Shown: in pieces, positions 1-8,586 of the stretch
How the letters are laid out: every line of letters begins with the position of its first letter
Numbering within the stretch: the first letter of the stretch is position 1
DNA from: a virus
UHGV virus genome: UHGV-1973422
Reading direction: 5' to 3' (one strand)
DNA: 8,586 nucleotides
The notes under the pieces: generated by a model
What the model saw: only the letters and a program-made list of their open reading frames with translations
The model's database searches: none
Told to the model about the DNA's origin: nothing
Translations under genes and position numbers: made by a program

Positions 1-187
1 CCACAGCCACAACAACAGGCCATACTTTACCAATGAGATCATTTGCCTGAGTCAACAAAGCATCCATTGCCTGACCTGCATAATCAGTACCGCCTGTAGC
101 GCCTTCAGCCGCAAAAGAACTTGCAGAAATAAAAAGCGCAGTTGAAGCCAGAGCAACTTTATATTTAACAGTAGACAGAATTTTCAT
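1..187 (-). CDS. gVIII: Major coat protein pVIII, 5' portion (signal peptide plus N-terminal mature region); continues in frame at 8522..8586 across the window junction
   Basis: ATG at 187-185 with GGAG 8 nt upstream. Translation MKILSTVKYKVALASTALFISASSFA|AEGATGGTDYAGQAMDALLTQANDLIGKVWPVVVAV... has an AxA signal cleavage site, acidic N-terminus and hydrophobic core, as in Ff pVIII (MKKSLVLKASVAVATLVPMLSFA|AEGDDPAKAAFDSLQASATEYIGYAWAMVVVIVGATIGIKLFKKFTSKAS, from memory). Confidence 0.85.
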   Translation of the reverse strand, partial: MKILSTVKYKVALASTALFISASSFAAEGATGGTDYAGQAMDALLTQANDLIGKVWPVVVAV

Positions 188-206
188 AGGAATAACTCCA
201 TTAAGG

Positions 207-302
207 TTACATTAATCGGTCAGAAAATGATTTAAATGAACCGACCGCATAGAAAAGGGCAAAACCAAAGGTATAAGCCCCGAAGAAATAAACGATATAC
301 AT
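207..302 (-). CDS. gIX: Minor coat protein pIX-like (31 aa, MYIVYFFGAYTFGFALFYAVGSFKSFSDRLM)
   Basis: Small hydrophobic ORF between gVII and gVIII. Its ATG (302-300) overlaps the gVII stop as TAATG. Size and position match Ff gene IX (32 aa). It is the C-terminal part of track ORF 207..431. Confidence 0.6.
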   Translation of the reverse strand: MYIVYFFGAYTFGFALFYAVGSFKSFSDRLM

Positions 303-388
303 TAACGAAAGACCCCCGCAGTAATCGCGCCGAGGCCAAAAGAAATAACGATGCCTGACGCTATCAAAATTTGAATAACATCGTCCAT
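302..388 (-). CDS. gVII: Minor coat protein pVII-like (28 aa, MDDVIQILIASGIVISFGLGAITAGVFR)
   Basis: ATG at 388-386, two nt after the gV stop; stop TAA at 304-302. Hydrophobic 28-mer with a C-terminal GLGAITAG motif resembling Ff pVII ...ALGIIAGGQR. Not in the ORF track because it is under 60 aa. Confidence 0.6.
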   Translation of the reverse strand: MDDVIQILIASGIVISFGLGAITAGVFR

Positions 389-390
389 AT

Positions 391-708
391 TTAACCTTTG
401 ATCTCTGCGATGCCACCATCGGAAGAAACATTATAAGTTACACCTTCCCTACCCTCCATTGACCACGCACGGACATAGACAGGAATTTGAACTAATTTCC
501 CAATGAAAGCATTCGCCTGGTTCATTAGACCTGCGTTAACGAGAGCCTGAGAAACTCGAATAATAATTTGATCCTGCTTTGTACCACCAAAACCATCAGG
601 TATTTCAAGGCCAATACCAATTTCATTATAATAGCCCTGACCATTAACTTTATTACGTTGGCGGGCTCCCAACATTTTACCCTTAACGAAAAGACCATAA
701 TTAGACAT
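391..708 (-). CDS. gV: Putative ssDNA-binding protein (gene V analogue), 105 aa
   Basis: Directly follows the replication initiator gene, as in all Ff-like phages. AAGGAA Shine-Dalgarno 7 nt upstream of ATG 708-706. Only weak by-eye similarity to Ff/IKe pV, so the call is mainly by synteny. Confidence 0.6.
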   Translation of the reverse strand: MSNYGLFVKGKMLGARQRNKVNGQGYYNEIGIGLEIPDGFGGTKQDQIIIRVSQALVNAGLMNQANAFIGKLVQIPVYVRAWSMEGREGVTYNVSSDGGIAEIKG

Positions 709-719
709 ATTACTTTCCT

Positions 720-6151: not shown

Positions 6152-6871
6152 ATAATAATTAAATCCTCTGTGAACAGAAAATTGACCGTGCGTGATAAAT
6201 GGTGGCAAAAGCGAAAATGCGCCATGAGGATAATTATCTGTGAACGCTTGTTTGGTATTGTAAGCAGAATAAAGAGATTTTCCTGTATATATCCATTTAT
6301 CAACAGTGATTGAATTAACATTATCACCATATTTGACAATGCCAAAGTGTACCTTTGGTAAAGAAAATCTCGCCCCTGAAACCAAATTCATAATGGAGCC
6401 AACAAAAGGAATGTTTAATTTATCTGAACGGCGACAATAAACAACATGCTCAGCAAGCGCCAGACGAGCTTGCTTATCCATTATCGAAATATCCTGAATC
6501 AAAAATATAATATCCCAGCCTAATTTTCTGGCATGTAAAAACCAGTCAATAACAGGTTGTCTGTCTTTATCACCCCATGAGCGGGAATTAAACCAAGTAC
6601 CACATTCATCAAGTACAAGGAGGCCATTACGGGATTCATCGTAAGATGTATTCCCAATACCAATAGCAAGTAAATCATTTAATGAAGGCTTGTCAGGAAT
6701 GCGAATAACGCGCGTTTTTTTCGCATAACGCCCAACCATAGGCATATTATGCAATTTAAGATCAAGATTAGTGGCAACAGGACAACCCTTAGCAAGTCTT
6801 TCCTGTATTCTGGAAACACTAACAAGTGTCTTGCCTGAGCCTAATTTGCCTGTTACTACATAAACCGCCAT
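5777..6871 (-). CDS. gI: Assembly ATPase pI (Zot-like), 364 aa
   Basis: MAVYVVTGKLGSGKTLVSVSRIQ...LDECGTWFNSRSW.DK.RQPVIDWFLHARKLGWDIIFL.QD.SI.DKQAR.ALAEHVVYCRR is near-collinear with M13 pI (MAVYFVTGKLGSGKTLVSVGKIQ...). Walker A motif GKLGSGKT. The ATG directly follows the gVI stop (TAAATG). Confidence 0.95.
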   Translation of the reverse strand: MAVYVVTGKLGSGKTLVSVSRIQERLAKGCPVATNLDLKLHNMPMVGRYAKKTRVIRIPDKPSLNDLLAIGIGNTSYDESRNGLLVLDECGTWFNSRSWGDKDRQPVIDWFLHARKLGWDIIFLIQDISIMDKQARLALAEHVVYCRRSDKLNIPFVGSIMNLVSGARFSLPKVHFGIVKYGDNVNSITVDKWIYTGKSLYSAYNTKQAFTDNYPHGAFSLLPPFITHGQFSVHRGFNYYMRLTKIYFRKLNRLILMLSFLALGLAFGFWLQSGKNVDEISAIKSAYAEQARAVTPDSSSDLPRLSINSFSQLGFDVSVTFVDAKGMKYQYFDLIKDGYSVDIKDACRVVIRKGRYLQTVTCQE

Positions 6872-7213
6872 TTAAATCACCCTGTTTGCATAATCAAGAA
6901 ACTTTTGTTTTAAATCGAAAACAAAAACACTGATACGAGTAACCATAATAACGTTAACACACGCCTGAAAATGGTCAGGCAATACAGACGCCATTAAATG
7001 GGAGAAATCAGCAGGTAAACCGTTATACATGACCTCAGCAAGGTACTGCATTAAAAGCGTAACAGTTGTTGTAATTAATGCGACCAATGCAAAGGCGATT
7101 AATCCTGTTCTGGTAGCAAGTCGAGCTAAAAAACTCGCCACATAGCCAATAAACAAAGGAACAAGACCAATAAGAAAACGCAACAATGCAGGAATACCTA
7201 ATAATAAAGGCAT
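6872..7213 (-). CDS. gVI: Minor coat protein pVI, about 113 aa
   Basis: [14 protein letters not shown]...VFVFDLKQKFLDY matches M13 pVI MPVLLGIPLLLRFL...IFIFDVKQKIVSY. ATG 7213-7211 overlaps the gIII stop as TGATG. The track ORF starts one codon earlier at a GTG. Confidence 0.85.
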   Translation of the reverse strand: MPLLLGIPALLRFLIGLVPLFIGYVASFLARLATRTGLIAFALVALITTTVTLLMQYLAEVMYNGLPADFSHLMASVLPDHFQACVNVIMVTRISVFVFDLKQKFLDYANRVI

Positions 7214-8475
7214 CACTCACCCCCTTTGCGAAGCAATGAAGTTAAAGAAGTAAAGACATACCAGAACGTAAGGCAATAAAAAACCCATGAAAGAACATCT
7301 TTAATAGTCAGTAATTTATCGCAACCAATATCAATCTGATAAACCTCTCCGGGAAAAATAATAAAATCAGAGCAGCCGTTACCATTGGGTAAATTAGGCA
7401 GCATAGCACCTTTATTTAAAAACGCTTCCCATAAAGCACCGTGAGAATCCTTTTCAATTCCCAATTCAGAATCAGCCAAAGTAGAAGCGCCATCTAATTC
7501 AGAGTCGCCCTTTCCATAACGAGAATCACCACCTGAAGGGTCAGCAAAACGGCCAGCCCCCCGCGTAAGATTGTTAATGGAATCGTCAAGACGATTTATA
7601 TTATTCCTGGTTTGTTCATCGGCATTTTTTTTATCATCTGATGAAGTGTCTTTCTCCGTTAATTTATCATGAATATCGCTGGCTATTTTGGGTGAAGCAC
7701 CTTCGATCGCAGACTGAATATCACCTTTAGAAAGACTGGAACCACTAGAGCCACCGCCAGAACTACCGCCAGAACTACCGCCACCGGACTCACCACCGCC
7801 AGACTCACCACCGCCAGACTCACCACCGCCAGACTCACCACCGCCAGACTCACCACCACCATTTTGGGGGGTTGAGGGTTTATCAGAGGGGTCAGCTACA
7901 GCACCTGTAGGCTTCCATGTTGCAGCGCAAACAGTACCATCACCCTGACAAACAATGACACCAGTAGCCTCATATTCACAGCCGTTATAGTAGATATAGC
8001 GACCACCATCATATGAATCAACATTATTAAATACACCTTCTTCTGGCGGCTTCGCTTCACAAATTTCTTCTGGTGTCGGGTCAGTAGGTTTTTCATCAGG
8101 AACAGAACGCTGAATATTACCAACAATATAAGCCGTTAAAGACCAATATTTATCCTTCTGCCCTGGTGAATCGCTGTAAGTACAATCACCAGTAAAAACA
8201 AGACGGAATTCAGAATCAGGCCAGATACCCTCATAAGTTGGTTTAACCCGAGTAAATACACTCTGAGCACTGGATTTAGCACCCTGACAAGCAGAGGCCT
8301 GCATAGCAGCATCAATATAGTAAACCGTTGTCTTAGAGCCATCCTGATTGGTTATTTGCTTACTTTCAGCGTAGGCAGAACTTTGATAAGTGGATTTAGT
8401 AATGCTTTCCCATGACTCAGCATGTGAAAAAGGAGAAATGAGGACAGCGGAAAGAATTAATATTTTCCTTTTCAT
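7213..8475 (-). CDS. gIII: Adsorption / minor coat protein pIII, about 420 aa: signal peptide, N-terminal domain of unknown specificity, TolA-binding-like motif, Gly-rich linker, conserved C-terminal anchor
   Basis: Start at internal ATG 8475 ([19 protein letters not shown]|ESWES signal peptide). [24 protein letters not shown] resembles M13 N1 CLWNATGVVVCTGDETQCYGTWVP. (GGGES)n linker. C-terminus [36 protein letters not shown] matches M13 CDKINLFRGVFAFLLYVATFMYVFSTFANILRNKES. Confidence 0.9.
7750..7860 (-). repeat. Tandem 15-bp repeats (AGACTCACCACCGCC on the plus strand) encoding the (GGGES)n / (GGSS)n linker of pIII
   Basis: Four consecutive 15-mers at 7801-7860 (last copy ...CCACC) preceded by diverged copies at about 7759-7800. 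In frame within gIII. Confidence 0.9.
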
Positions 8476-8486
8476 AGTAACCCGCT

Positions 8487-8512
8487 TTAATAAAGGGGCA
8501 ACGAGTGCCCCT
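8487..8512 (-). terminator. Rho-independent terminator candidate between gVIII and gIII
   Basis: Minus-strand read AGGGGCA-CTCGT-TGCCCCT followed by TTATTAAAG: 7-bp GC-rich stem with a 5-nt loop. Ff phages have a strong terminator at exactly this position. Confidence 0.6.
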
Positions 8513-8521
8513 GAGTGAAAT

Positions 8522-8586
8522 TCAAACCGCTTTTGAAGAGAATTTTTTGAAAATACGAATGGCAAGCCCAGCGCCAACCACAGCCA
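8522..8586 (-). CDS. gVIII: Major coat protein pVIII, 3' portion (...[20 protein letters not shown]), continuing from 1..187
   Basis: Minus-strand translation ends in a basic C-terminus matching Ff pVIII ...IGIKLFKKFTSKAS; stop TGA at 8524-8522. The reading frame is continuous with the minus-strand ORF that leaves the window at position 1. Confidence 0.85.

What the first reader, a model, noticed from the sequence alone, without database searches (positions are those of the whole stretch)
1..8586. The window closes on itself: gene VIII is split across the ends and rejoins in frame
The minus-strand ORF leaving the window at position 1 (...GKVWPVVVAV) and the minus-strand ORF entering at 8586 ([20 protein letters not shown]) are two halves of one pVIII and are in the same frame when 8586 is joined to 1. 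Both ends carry the same 9-mer CCACAGCCA, which is either a real VVAVVAVV duplication in the coat protein or a 9-bp assembly overlap; both readings keep the frame. The sequence is therefore a complete circular replicon of about 8.58 kb, or one unit of a head-to-tail tandem prophage array.
Basis: seen in the sequence. Interest (0 to 1): 0.55.

Follow-up and report, generated by a model that had tools for sequence, protein, structure and literature searches.

The report
Complete filamentous phage genome, circularly permuted
The window is one whole 8,577-base unit of a known E. coli filamentous phage (the UPΦ group), cut inside its coat-protein gene with 9 bases repeated at the ends, so it closes on itself but is ordinary.

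Summary
The minus-strand ORF that starts at 187 and leaves at position 1, and the one that enters at 8586 and stops at 8522, are two in-frame halves of one gene VIII. Both ends carry CCACAGCCA.

The 9-mer is terminal redundancy, not a VAV duplication. None of 118 copies of this junction in other sequences has it twice: 104 places in 48 complete E. coli genomes, 6 viral contigs and 8 metagenome matches. With one copy removed, the protein has 80 aa. It is identical to the annotated major coat protein of close relatives and fills the whole Pfam coat-protein model. The true unit is 8,577 bp.

The element is a UPΦ-type inovirus (Shapiro and Putonti 2020); their published primers match the window. 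Its virion and assembly genes resemble phage IKe. Its replication and integration genes resemble the CUS-1 type prophage.

It carries a CTXφ-style pair of inverted dif-like sites at 3634-3727. The closest relative (99.7% identical) sits as three head-to-tail copies at dif in E. coli HUM3355. A 7,938-bp circular record exists in Salmonella.

The window alone cannot show whether it came from a free circle or from a collapsed tandem array. This is already known biology and of low interest.

The parts
1..187 (-). Gene VIII (major coat protein), 5' part: ATG at 187..185, signal peptide and N-terminal half of the mature protein. Bases 1-9 (CCACAGCCA) repeat 8578-8586.
   Evidence: After joining, the product matches PF19199 full length and is identical to WP_001734929.1.
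8522..8586 (-). Gene VIII, 3' part: transmembrane and basic C-terminus ...[20 protein letters not shown], with stop TGA at 8524..8522. Bases 8578-8586 are the redundant 9-mer.
   Evidence: 59% aa identity to IKe pVIII. The 83-aa version needs a 3-residue insertion relative to IKe.
8493..8515 (-). G+C-rich stem-loop (GGGGCA/TGCCCC) followed by a T run just downstream of gene VIII. Probable intrinsic terminator, in the position where IKe is annotated with one.
   Evidence: Read directly from the sequence. The IKe annotation has a stem-loop after gene VIII. Its function here is inferred.
7213..8475 (-). Gene III (attachment protein, 420 aa) with a GGGES/GGSS linker encoded by 12-15-nt repeats at about 7750-7866.
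   Evidence: PF21443 and PF05357. 50% aa identity to IKe pIII. Repeats. A 24-nt copy-number difference from HUM3355 at about 7752. UPΦ901 primers match at 7876-7895 (exact) and 8326-8345 (1 mismatch).
6872..7213 (-). Gene VI (minor coat protein, 113 aa).
   Evidence: PF17537 DUF5455. 52% aa identity to IKe pVI.
5777..6871 (-). Gene I (Zot-type assembly ATPase, 364 aa).
   Evidence: PF05707, E = 6e-41. 66% aa identity to IKe pI.
4495..5769 (-). Gene IV (secretin, 424 aa).
   Evidence: PF00263, PF21305 and PF03958. 70% aa identity to IKe pIV.
4451..4499 (-). 20-nt-arm hairpin at the end of gene IV. Candidate terminator or packaging signal, in the position where IKe is annotated with a 'morphogenetic signal'.
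   Evidence: Inverted repeat I4, 90% complementary. IKe annotation. Its function is inferred and was not tested.
4117..4425 (-). Conserved accessory ORF (102 aa), most likely 'h1' of the UPΦ viruses. Function unknown.
   Evidence: phrog_4115, unknown function. Present in all relatives. The published primer IntCheck_RV matches exactly at 4379-4398.
3766..3999 (-). Conserved accessory ORF (77 aa, CxxC...CxxC), most likely 'h2' of the UPΦ viruses. Function unknown.
   Evidence: phrog_5435. Weak zinc-finger hit below the Pfam cut-off. Present in relatives.
3634..3727 (-). attP: two inverted dif-like sites on the viral strand. attP1 is 3727..3695 (GGTGCGCATAA-TGTACGACTCG-TTATGTTGAAA). An 11-bp stem with a 12-nt loop is 3694..3661. 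attP2 is 3660..3634 (CTTTAGCATAA-CGTCA-TTATGCGAACC). Together they fold as a forked hairpin.
   Evidence: XerC arm 11/11 to E. coli dif. Inverted repeats I1 and I11. Single-strand DNA fold -33.3 kcal/mol, z = -6.3, 0 of 200 shuffles as good. In HUM3355 the array ends exactly here, with a perfect dif regenerated on one side. Conserved in Izhakiella and Rosenbergiella relatives and in the UTI89 prophage.
2181..3631 (+). Variable cargo slot next to attP, read opposite to the phage genes: c1 2213-2635 (140 aa, membrane protein), c2 2747-3214 (155 aa), c3 3260-3631 (123 aa). Functions unknown.
   Evidence: Relatives stop aligning at about 2172-2660 and resume at about 3627-3713. No Pfam or NCBIfam family and only one weak PADLOC hit. 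PHROGs of unknown function. c1 is 96% aa identical to the UTI89 prophage ORF.
1942..2124 (+). 60-aa ORF divergent from gene II, in the position of the repressor in CTXφ and YpfΦ. A regulatory role is inferred from position only.
   Evidence: phrog_2503, unknown function. Conserved in all relatives as WP_001335098.1. The position is compared with the YpfΦ description in PMC4266046.
720..1772 (-). Gene II (rolling-circle replication initiator, 350 aa, GTG start as annotated in RefSeq relatives).
   Evidence: PF05144, E = 9e-70, and PF05155, E = 2.5e-29. 86% aa identity to the UTI89 dif-prophage gene II, and only about 25% to IKe pII.
391..708 (-). Gene V (single-strand DNA-binding protein, 105 aa).
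   Evidence: PF17426, E = 3e-51. 94% aa identity to the UTI89 prophage gene V.
207..388 (-). Genes VII (302-388, 28 aa) and IX (207-302, 31 aa), minor coat proteins.
   Evidence: 70% and 57% aa identity to IKe pVII and pIX. RefSeq annotation 'tail virion protein G7P-2' in relatives. phrog_28333 minor head protein.

Best explanation
The window is one complete, circularly permuted genome unit of a UPΦ-type filamentous phage (Inoviridae, close to Lineavirus). It is 8,577 bp of unique sequence plus a 9-base terminal redundancy, and the break happens to fall inside gene VIII.

Shown here:
- The ends rejoin through a single copy of CCACAGCCA to give the normal 80-aa major coat protein.
- All ten canonical genes are present in Ff/IKe order: II(X), V, VII, IX, VIII, III, VI, I, IV.
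- No integrase is present.
- A pair of inverted dif-like sites lies at 3634-3727.
- Near-identical copies sit head to tail at the chromosomal dif site of E. coli. A perfect dif is regenerated at one end of the array and a hybrid site lies at the other.

Inferred from what is established for CTXφ, and proposed in the literature for CUS-1 and YpfΦ:
- The packaged strand (the window's minus strand) folds the two sites into a forked hairpin that mimics dif.
- Host XerC exchanges one strand pair at the border between the XerC arm and the central region of attP1, and replication fixes the insertion.
- In double-stranded form the site is masked, so the prophage cannot excise by Xer recombination.
- New viral strands are made when pII nicks one copy and terminates in the next. 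Tandem copies would therefore be the productive state.

A sequence record that wraps around inside a gene is what either a replicative-form circle or an assembler-collapsed tandem array produces.
For: Closure:
- The 9-mer occurs at both ends only.
- The junction pattern, allowing a gap of 0-9 bases, matched only with gap 0: 6 of 6 viral contigs and 8 of 8 metagenome matches.
- The as-written 120-nt junction aligns to all 48 E. coli genomes at 111/120, i.e. with a 9-nt gap, across 104 places.
- The window's end and start alignments overlap by 9 nt in HUM3355 and in every other locus.
- The 80-aa join equals WP_001734929.1 and covers PF19199 end to end.

Completeness: Pfam and IKe matches for every core gene.

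Identity: published UPΦ901 primers are found in the window. The GGGES repeats, the h1/h2 position and the variable ORFs next to dif match the description in PMC7307601.

Integration:
- HUM3355 holds three copies with a period of 8,601 bp between hipA and ydeT.
- A perfect dif lies at L008 6188-6215 and a hybrid site at L007 21301-21328.
- The attP hairpin has z = -6.3.
- The same hairpin occurs in the UTI89 dif prophage.

Copy number: of the 48 complete E. coli genomes that hold the phage, 37 carry 2 or more copies of gene III.

Circular form: Salmonella record NZ_CP140410.1 is circular, 7,938 bp, and has gene VIII intact.

Literature for the mechanism: PMC3089051, PMC3442271, PMC4266046.
Against: - No reads are available, so the physical form in the source sample (free circle, tandem array or both) was not observed.
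- A 9-base overlap does not correspond to a usual assembler k-mer, so how the redundancy arose is unexplained.
- Single-strand integration, XerC-only catalysis and tandem-dependent production are transferred from CTXφ. They have not been tested for UPΦ.
- 11 of the 48 complete genomes hold a single copy.
- The hairpin stems are almost invariant among relatives, so there is no covariation support.
- The replication origin was not located.
Confidence: 0.9

Rival explanations
1. The source molecule was the chromosomal head-to-tail prophage array at dif, which the assembler collapsed into a single phage-length contig. Under this reading the window is one repeat unit and not a free replicon.
For: - 102 of the 104 copies in complete E. 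coli genomes are chromosomal, and 37 of 48 genomes have at least 2 copies.
- Tandem arrays were verified in HUM3355, GCA_030183145.2, metagenome contig OKFE01000011.1, where two junctions lie 8,344 bp apart, and EC5502.
- PMC7307601 states that short-read assemblies do not resolve the tandem copies.
- In 33 of 90 index blocks, the longest contig carrying the exact pIII is only 5-10 kb.
Against: - An array and a free replicative form are expected to coexist in producing cells, so this is not exclusive of the circle reading.
- A collapsed repeat would often break at attP, where the assembly graph branches, as the Izhakiella contig does. This window breaks inside gene VIII instead.
Confidence: 0.5
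2. The source molecule was the extrachromosomal double-stranded replicative form, or the packaged single-stranded circle, assembled as a circle and written out with a 9-base redundancy.
For: - A 7,938-bp circular record of the same phage lineage exists in Salmonella, with an identical coat protein and 99.2% identity over the shared 83%.
- UPΦ901 DNA is shed into culture supernatant (PMC7307601).
- The break point is arbitrary, inside a gene, as expected when a circle is linearised.
Against: - None of the 48 complete E. coli genomes that hold the phage has it as a separate small replicon. Small circles are easily lost in long-read library preparation, so this is weak evidence.
- The evidence is equally compatible with a collapsed array.
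Confidence: 0.4
3. The 9-mer is a real in-frame duplication, so this strain's coat protein has three extra residues (VAV) in its transmembrane helix. The record would then be an exact 8,586-bp circle cut between the two copies.
For: - The frame is kept.
- Short direct duplications do arise. This phage shows in-frame repeat-number changes in gene III (24 nt) and in gene IV (9 nt).
Against: - 0 of 118 junction copies in relatives have the duplication.
- The 83-aa form needs an insertion relative to IKe pVIII in the otherwise gap-free membrane segment.
- It would require the record to be cut exactly between the two copies, about 1 chance in 8,586. Terminal redundancy, by contrast, places the repeat at the two ends by construction.
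Confidence: 0.02
4. The matching ends and the matching frame are coincidence. The window would then be a linear fragment whose two partial ORFs are unrelated.
For: None found.
Against: - The chance of a 9-base terminal match is about 4e-6.
- The joined ORF is identical to an annotated protein and is contiguous in more than 100 independent sequences.
Confidence: 0.001

Closest known systems
UPΦ viruses (UPΦ901; Shapiro and Putonti 2020, Virus Evolution, PMC7307601)
   Same: - The published UPΦ901-specific primers match the window: one exact, one with a single mismatch, plus the integration-check primer exact.
- The core genes resemble IKe and I2-2 and are in the same order.
- Two conserved unknown ORFs follow gene IV.
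- Reverse-oriented variable ORFs lie next to the dif-like site.
- g3p carries GGGES repeats whose number varies.
- Integration is as tandem repeats at dif in E. coli and Salmonella.
   Different: - This unit is 8,577 bp, whereas the authors' UPΦ901 query was 7,560 bp. The difference lies in the cargo slot 2181-3631, which varies between strains.
- I did not have the UPΦ901 sequence itself, so overall identity to the type strain was not measured.
- The paper does not mention the paired inverted sites or hairpin, or any circular record.
Phage IKe and I2-2 (genus Lineavirus)
   Same: - Same gene order.
- Amino-acid identity to IKe is 50-70% for pIII, pVI, pI, pIV, pVII, pIX and pVIII.
- The pVIII C-terminus ...FKKFSSKAV is identical.
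   Different: - IKe is 6,883 bp, does not integrate, and has no dif-like site or cargo ORFs.
- Gene II is only about 25% identical, and gene V gave no hit at E <= 1e-3.
- At the DNA level only a 190-nt stretch of gene IV matches, at about 80%.
CUS-1 / YpfΦ (dif-integrating prophages of E. coli O18:K1:H7 and Yersinia pestis)
   Same: - Integration at dif beside hipA, with tandem copies.
- Two transcription directions and variable ORFs at the attachment-site end (PMC4266046).
- Against the dif prophage of the O18:K1:H7 strain UTI89: gene II 86% aa, gene V 94% aa, ORF c1 96% aa, and an almost identical attP hairpin.
   Different: - The whole virion and assembly block is unrelated. Only pIV matches, at 27%, and the others give no hit. 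PMC7307601 reports less than 30% overall aa identity.
- That the UTI89 prophage is CUS-1 itself is my assumption, based on serotype and position. The CUS-1 paper was not available.
CTXφ of Vibrio cholerae (CTX-type Xer-exploiting integrative element)
   Same: - Two inverted dif-like sites on the packaged strand.
- Unequal central regions: 11 and 5 nt here, 12 and 7 nt in CTXφ El Tor (PMC3089051).
- No integrase.
- A regenerated dif on one side of the prophage.
- Tandem arrays are common.
   Different: - No sequence similarity was looked for or seen.
- The host and the structural genes are different, and there are no toxin genes.
- Here the two sites are bridged by a perfect 11-bp stem with a 12-nt loop, whereas CTXφ has a spacer of about 90 nt.
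- The mechanism has not been tested for this phage.

Membership tests
Major coat protein pVIII of Ff/IKe-like inoviruses (Pfam PF19199) | Full-length match to the family profile, above the curated cut-off, by the joined ORF. | tested here: met
   68.0 bits against a cut-off of 24.6, profile positions 2-69 of 69. 59% aa identity to IKe pVIII.
Inoviridae (Ff/IKe-like genome plan) | Genes II(X), V, VII, IX, VIII, III, VI, I and IV on one strand, in that order, in a small circular genome. | tested here: met
   Pfam hits for II, V, VIII, III, VI, I and IV. VII and IX identified by blastp to IKe. The order was read from coordinates. Closure shown.
UPΦ viruses (PMC7307601) | Sequence match to UPΦ901, tested through the authors' specific primers. 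| tested here: met
   UPphi_shortFW is exact at 7876-7895. UPphi_shortRV has 1 mismatch at 8326-8345. IntCheck_RV is exact at 4379-4398.
UPΦ viruses (PMC7307601) | Nine core genes, including the two group-specific unknown genes h1 and h2 downstream of gene IV. | tested here: inconclusive
   Two conserved unknown ORFs occupy that position (4117-4425 and 3766-3999), and one of them carries the IntCheck_RV primer site.
UPΦ viruses (PMC7307601) | Integration at the host dif site as tandem repeats. | tested here: met
   Shown for relatives, not for the window's own source. HUM3355 (99.7% identical) has three copies with dif regenerated. 37 of 48 genomes have at least 2 copies.
CUS-1 / YpfΦ lineage | About 99% nucleotide identity across the 7.1-kb core, structural genes included (PMC4266046). 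| tested here: not met
   Against the UTI89 dif prophage only gene II (86% aa), gene V (94%), c1 (96%) and attP are shared. The structural proteins give no hit, or 27% for pIV. Caveat: UTI89 was used as a stand-in for CUS-1.
CTXφ-type Xer-exploiting integrative elements | Two dif-like sites in inverted orientation on the packaged strand, able to fold into a forked hairpin with paired XerC and XerD arms and an unpaired central region. | tested here: met
   Sites at 3727..3695 and 3660..3634. XerC arms pair 10/11 and XerD arms 8/11. Fold of -33.3 kcal/mol, z = -6.3.
CTXφ-type Xer-exploiting integrative elements | The prophage junctions are those expected from XerC cleavage at the arm/central-region border of attP1: dif regenerated on one side, a hybrid site on the other, and no integrase gene. 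| tested here: met
   A perfect 28-nt dif abuts the phage XerC-arm side (L008 6188-6215). The hybrid site lies beside hipA. No integrase domain occurs in any ORF.
CTXφ-type Xer-exploiting integrative elements | The single-stranded genome is the substrate, only XerC catalysis is needed, integration is irreversible, and virions are produced from tandem copies by rolling-circle synthesis. | not testable with these tools
   Requires genetics or biochemistry. Taken from PMC3089051 and PMC3442271.

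The most novel reading that the evidence does not exclude
UPΦ phages would be natural chimeras. An IKe-like virion and assembly block is joined to the CUS-1/YpfΦ replication and integration block, including a CTXφ-type forked-hairpin attP that the UPΦ description does not mention.

If that attP works as in CTXφ, integration is one-way and a single-copy prophage is a dead end. The tandem array, which is what produces a self-closing contig like this one, would then be the obligatory productive state.

The slot beside attP (2181-3631) would be a swap site for cargo such as Doc toxins and nucleases.
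Probability: 0.5. Interest if true: 0.3.

Novelty: already known. Interest (0 to 1): 0.1.

Why it matters
It matters mainly for bookkeeping.
- The record should be treated as an 8,577-bp circular unit.
- Gene VIII should be annotated across the origin as an 80-aa protein.
- The 9 redundant bases should be trimmed, so that no false 83-aa coat variant or truncated coat genes enter databases.

Biologically it is one more instance of a phage group already found in hundreds of enterobacterial genomes.

The only added value is the explicit mapping of a CTXφ-style paired attachment site, and of the module boundary with CUS-1-type phages. This gives a testable reason why these prophages are usually found as tandem copies.

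Tried and rejected
1. My first working label was CUS-1/YpfΦ, based on dif, hipA, tandem copies and an 8.7-kb size. I rejected it after reading PMC7307601 and comparing proteins with the UTI89 dif prophage. Only gene II, gene V, c1 and attP are shared.
2. The Gonzalez 2002 CUS-1 paper is not held, so the CUS-1 sequence itself was never compared.
3. The junction scan of genome contigs found nothing. The follow-up protein scan did not return Yersinia pestis.
4. Megablast against the phage collection found no close relative. It gave only a 190-nt gene IV stretch to IKe and the PEar phages, and a 48-nt match to If1. UPΦ is apparently absent from that collection.
5. Pfam, NCBIfam and PADLOC scans of the cargo and accessory ORFs gave nothing usable. 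The single PADLOC hit (PDC-S57, E = 3e-4, 36 residues) was disregarded.
6. Folding of 2630-2750 around the If1-like 48-mer was not better than shuffles, z = -1.3.
7. I looked for covariation in the attP hairpin using the Izhakiella and Rosenbergiella relatives. The stems are nearly invariant, so this was uninformative.
8. The tandem period of exactly 8,586 bp in GCA_030183145.2 looked at first like support for a real duplication. It comes from a 9-nt insertion in gene IV, and the coat gene there is still 80 aa.

Full report
**Observation**

The window begins and ends with the same 9 bases, CCACAGCCA, and the 9-mer occurs nowhere else on either strand. On the minus strand an ORF starts at ATG 187..185 and runs off position 1. 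Another enters at 8586 and stops at TGA 8524..8522.

Joining 8586 to 1 as written keeps the frame and gives an 83-aa protein with ...VVVAVVAVVGAGL.... Removing one copy of the 9-mer also keeps the frame and gives 80 aa with ...VVVAVVGAGL.... A 9-base terminal match has a chance probability of about 4e-6. The description is correct.

**Overlap or duplication**

I tested this against independent copies of the junction.

- A pattern allowing 0 to 9 bases between the two flanks matched only with a gap of 0. This held in 6 of 6 viral contigs and in 8 of 8 matches on 7 metagenome contigs.
- The 120-nt junction as written aligned to 104 places in 48 complete E. coli genomes. Every record's best place was 111/120, which is a 9-nt gap.
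- In HUM3355 and every other fetched relative, the alignments of the window's end and of its start overlap by exactly 9 bases in the subject.
- The 80-aa product is identical to the annotated major coat protein WP_001734929.1, as translated from E. coli HUM3355 and from a Salmonella record.
- It covers Pfam PF19199 from profile position 2 to 69 of 69.
- The 83-aa form needs a three-residue insertion relative to IKe pVIII, in the otherwise gap-free membrane segment.

The 9-mer is therefore terminal redundancy, and the unit is 8,577 bp. A real duplication would also require the record to have been cut exactly between the two copies. I put that reading at about 2%.

**What the element is**

All canonical filamentous-phage genes are present on the minus strand in Ff/IKe order:

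| Gene | Coordinates |
|---|---|
| II | 720-1772 |
| V | 391-708 |
| VII | 302-388 |
| IX | 207-302 |
| VIII | 187..1 joined to 8577..8522 |
| III | 7213-8475 |
| VI | 6872-7213 |
| I | 5777-6871 |
| IV | 4495-5769 |

Two conserved unknown ORFs follow gene IV, at 4117-4425 and 3766-3999. On the opposite strand lie a 60-aa ORF (1942-2124) and three unknown ORFs (2213-2635, 2747-3214, 3260-3631).

The phage collection holds no close relative. In contrast, 47 complete E. coli genomes hold at least 80% of the window, the best at 99.7% identity.

The literature search led to the UPΦ viruses of Shapiro and Putonti (PMC7307601). These are IKe/I2-2-like phages integrated as tandem repeats at dif in E. 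coli, Salmonella, Klebsiella, Citrobacter and Yersinia enterocolitica. They have two group-specific unknown genes, variable reverse-oriented ORFs next to dif, and a varying number of GGGES repeats in g3p.

Their published primers are in the window:

- UPphi_shortFW, exact at 7876-7895.
- UPphi_shortRV, one mismatch at 8326-8345.
- IntCheck_RV, exact at 4379-4398.

The window's g3p has the GGGES repeats. It differs from HUM3355 by a 24-nt repeat-number change at about 7752.

**Mosaic structure**

Against IKe, the virion and assembly proteins are 50-70% identical. Gene II is only about 25% identical, and gene V gave no hit.

Against the dif-integrated prophage of the O18:K1:H7 strain UTI89, which I take to be of the CUS-1 type, the pattern is reversed. 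Gene II is 86% identical, gene V 94%, ORF c1 96%, and the attachment-site hairpin is almost the same. The structural proteins are unrelated.

[quoted passage not shown] It is also why my first label, CUS-1/YpfΦ, was dropped.

**Attachment site and integration**

The viral strand is the window's minus strand. On it, positions 3727..3695 read GGTGCGCATAA-TGTACGACTCG-TTATGTTGAAA.

- The XerC arm is 11/11 to E. coli dif.
- The central region is 11 nt.
- The XerD arm is 9/11.

A perfect 11-bp stem with a 12-nt loop follows at 3694..3661. Then comes an inverted second site at 3660..3634, CTTTAGCATAA-CGTCA-TTATGCGAACC. As single-stranded DNA the region folds at -33.3 kcal/mol, z = -6.3, and none of 200 shuffles folds as well.

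In HUM3355 three copies (period 8,601 bp) lie between hipA and ydeT.

- At the ydeT end the phage XerC-arm side is joined to a perfect 28-nt dif (L008 6188-6215).
- At the hipA end the host side is joined to the attP1 central region.

These are the junctions expected from XerC cleavage at the arm/central border of attP1. No ORF has an integrase domain.

This layout is that of CTXφ, whose two inverted sites have central regions of 12 and 7 nt. Reviews state that the CUS-1 and YpfΦ sites have the features for direct single-strand integration (PMC3089051).

For CTXφ the integrated site is masked, so excision by Xer does not occur. New viral strands are made by a rolling-circle-like process between tandem prophages (PMC3442271). 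I transfer that mechanism to this phage as an inference. It was not tested here, and the UPΦ paper does not mention a hairpin or attP.

**Circle or array**

Both forms exist among relatives.

Evidence for arrays:

- Gene III copy number in the 48 complete E. coli genomes is 1 in 11 genomes, 2 in 31, 3 in 4, 4 in 1 and 15 in 1.
- I verified tandem arrangement in HUM3355, in GCA_030183145.2, in a metagenome contig with two junctions 8,344 bp apart, and in EC5502.

Evidence for circles:

- A 7,938-bp circular record of the same lineage exists in Salmonella. Gene VIII is intact there and the cargo is different (a Doc toxin).
- The exact pIII of the window is often found on stand-alone 5-10 kb contigs.

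The window breaks inside gene VIII rather than at attP. It is therefore not a prophage cut at its attachment sites. It is either a linearised circle or a collapsed repeat unit. The sequence alone cannot separate these, and in producing cells both are expected together. How a 9-base redundancy arose is not explained, because it is not a usual assembler k-mer.

**Comparison with what is known, and verdict**

The element passes the tests I could run for the pVIII family, the inovirus genome plan and the UPΦ group. It fails the test for the CUS-1/YpfΦ lineage. It has the sequence features of a CTXφ-type Xer-exploiting element.

Everything about the finding is already described for this group: a self-closing unit, a tandem array at dif and a split gene VIII. 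The only small additions are the explicit two-site attP and the module boundary with CUS-1-type phages.

Novelty: already known. Interest: low.

Noticed in passing
window 2181-3631: The slot between the 60-aa ORF and attP is a swap site. Relatives share 1 to about 2180 (some to 2635/2660) and about 3627-8586, but carry different genes in between. Examples are a Doc toxin (Salmonella circular record), a PD-(D/E)XK nuclease, an STM4504/CBY_0614 protein, an ECs_2282 zinc-binding protein and a Mob_CxxC_CxxC protein.
   Followed up: partly
window 2731-3704: This stretch (ORFs c2 and c3 up to attP) is about 82% identical at the DNA level to three 'hypothetical protein' genes on hundreds of large, mostly conjugative plasmids of E. 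coli, Klebsiella, Salmonella and Enterobacter. The proteins match only PHROGs of unknown function.
   Followed up: no
window 2641-2688: A 48-nt stretch is 95.8% identical to part of the 'major intergenic region' of phage If1, about 225-270 nt downstream of its gene IV. It lies between cargo ORFs c1 and c2, at a point where several relatives stop aligning (2635/2660). The local fold is not significant, z = -1.3. It could be a replication or recombination signal.
   Followed up: partly
window 7750-7866 (gene III) and gene IV acidic repeat: There are in-frame repeat-number differences between strains: 24 nt in the Gly/Ser linker of gene III relative to HUM3355, and 9 nt in gene IV (424, 421 or 427 aa in relatives). 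By coincidence, the +9 form gives GCA_030183145.2 a tandem period of exactly 8,586 bp, the length of this window.
   Followed up: yes
L096 (E. coli EC5502, NZ_CP092647.1, 1-50000 and beyond): The chromosome record shows about 15 head-to-tail copies of the phage starting at the record origin, with most genes frameshifted or carrying internal stops. This looks like an uncorrected long-read assembly, and the copy number may be inflated by replicative-form reads.
   Followed up: partly
L021 (MAG 'Candidatus Nanosynbacter', JARKOR010000214.1) and L020 (Paenibacillus tengchongensis NODE_37, coverage 0.57): Near-identical copies of this enterobacterial phage (pI 100% and 97% aa identical) occur in assemblies labelled as unrelated phyla. 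The most likely cause is contamination or mis-binning.
   Followed up: no
L018 (Izhakiella australiensis NODE_39, 8,271 bp, coverage 336): A phage about 82% identical forms its own contig, which closes on itself inside attP with a 7-nt overlap (ATAATGT). The XerC arm is at the contig end and the inverted partner at its start. This is a second example of a self-closing unit, here broken at the attachment site.
   Followed up: partly
window 4451-4499: A hairpin with 20-nt arms (90% complementary) overlaps the stop of gene IV. This is the position where IKe is annotated with a terminator and morphogenetic (packaging) signal.
   Followed up: no
NZ_CP141085.1 (E. coli KE48, 385-kb record typed as a plasmid): Two copies of the phage lie on a 385-kb record classed as a plasmid, the only non-chromosomal places among the 104. 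I did not check whether that replicon carries a dif-like site or is a mis-assigned chromosomal piece.
   Followed up: no
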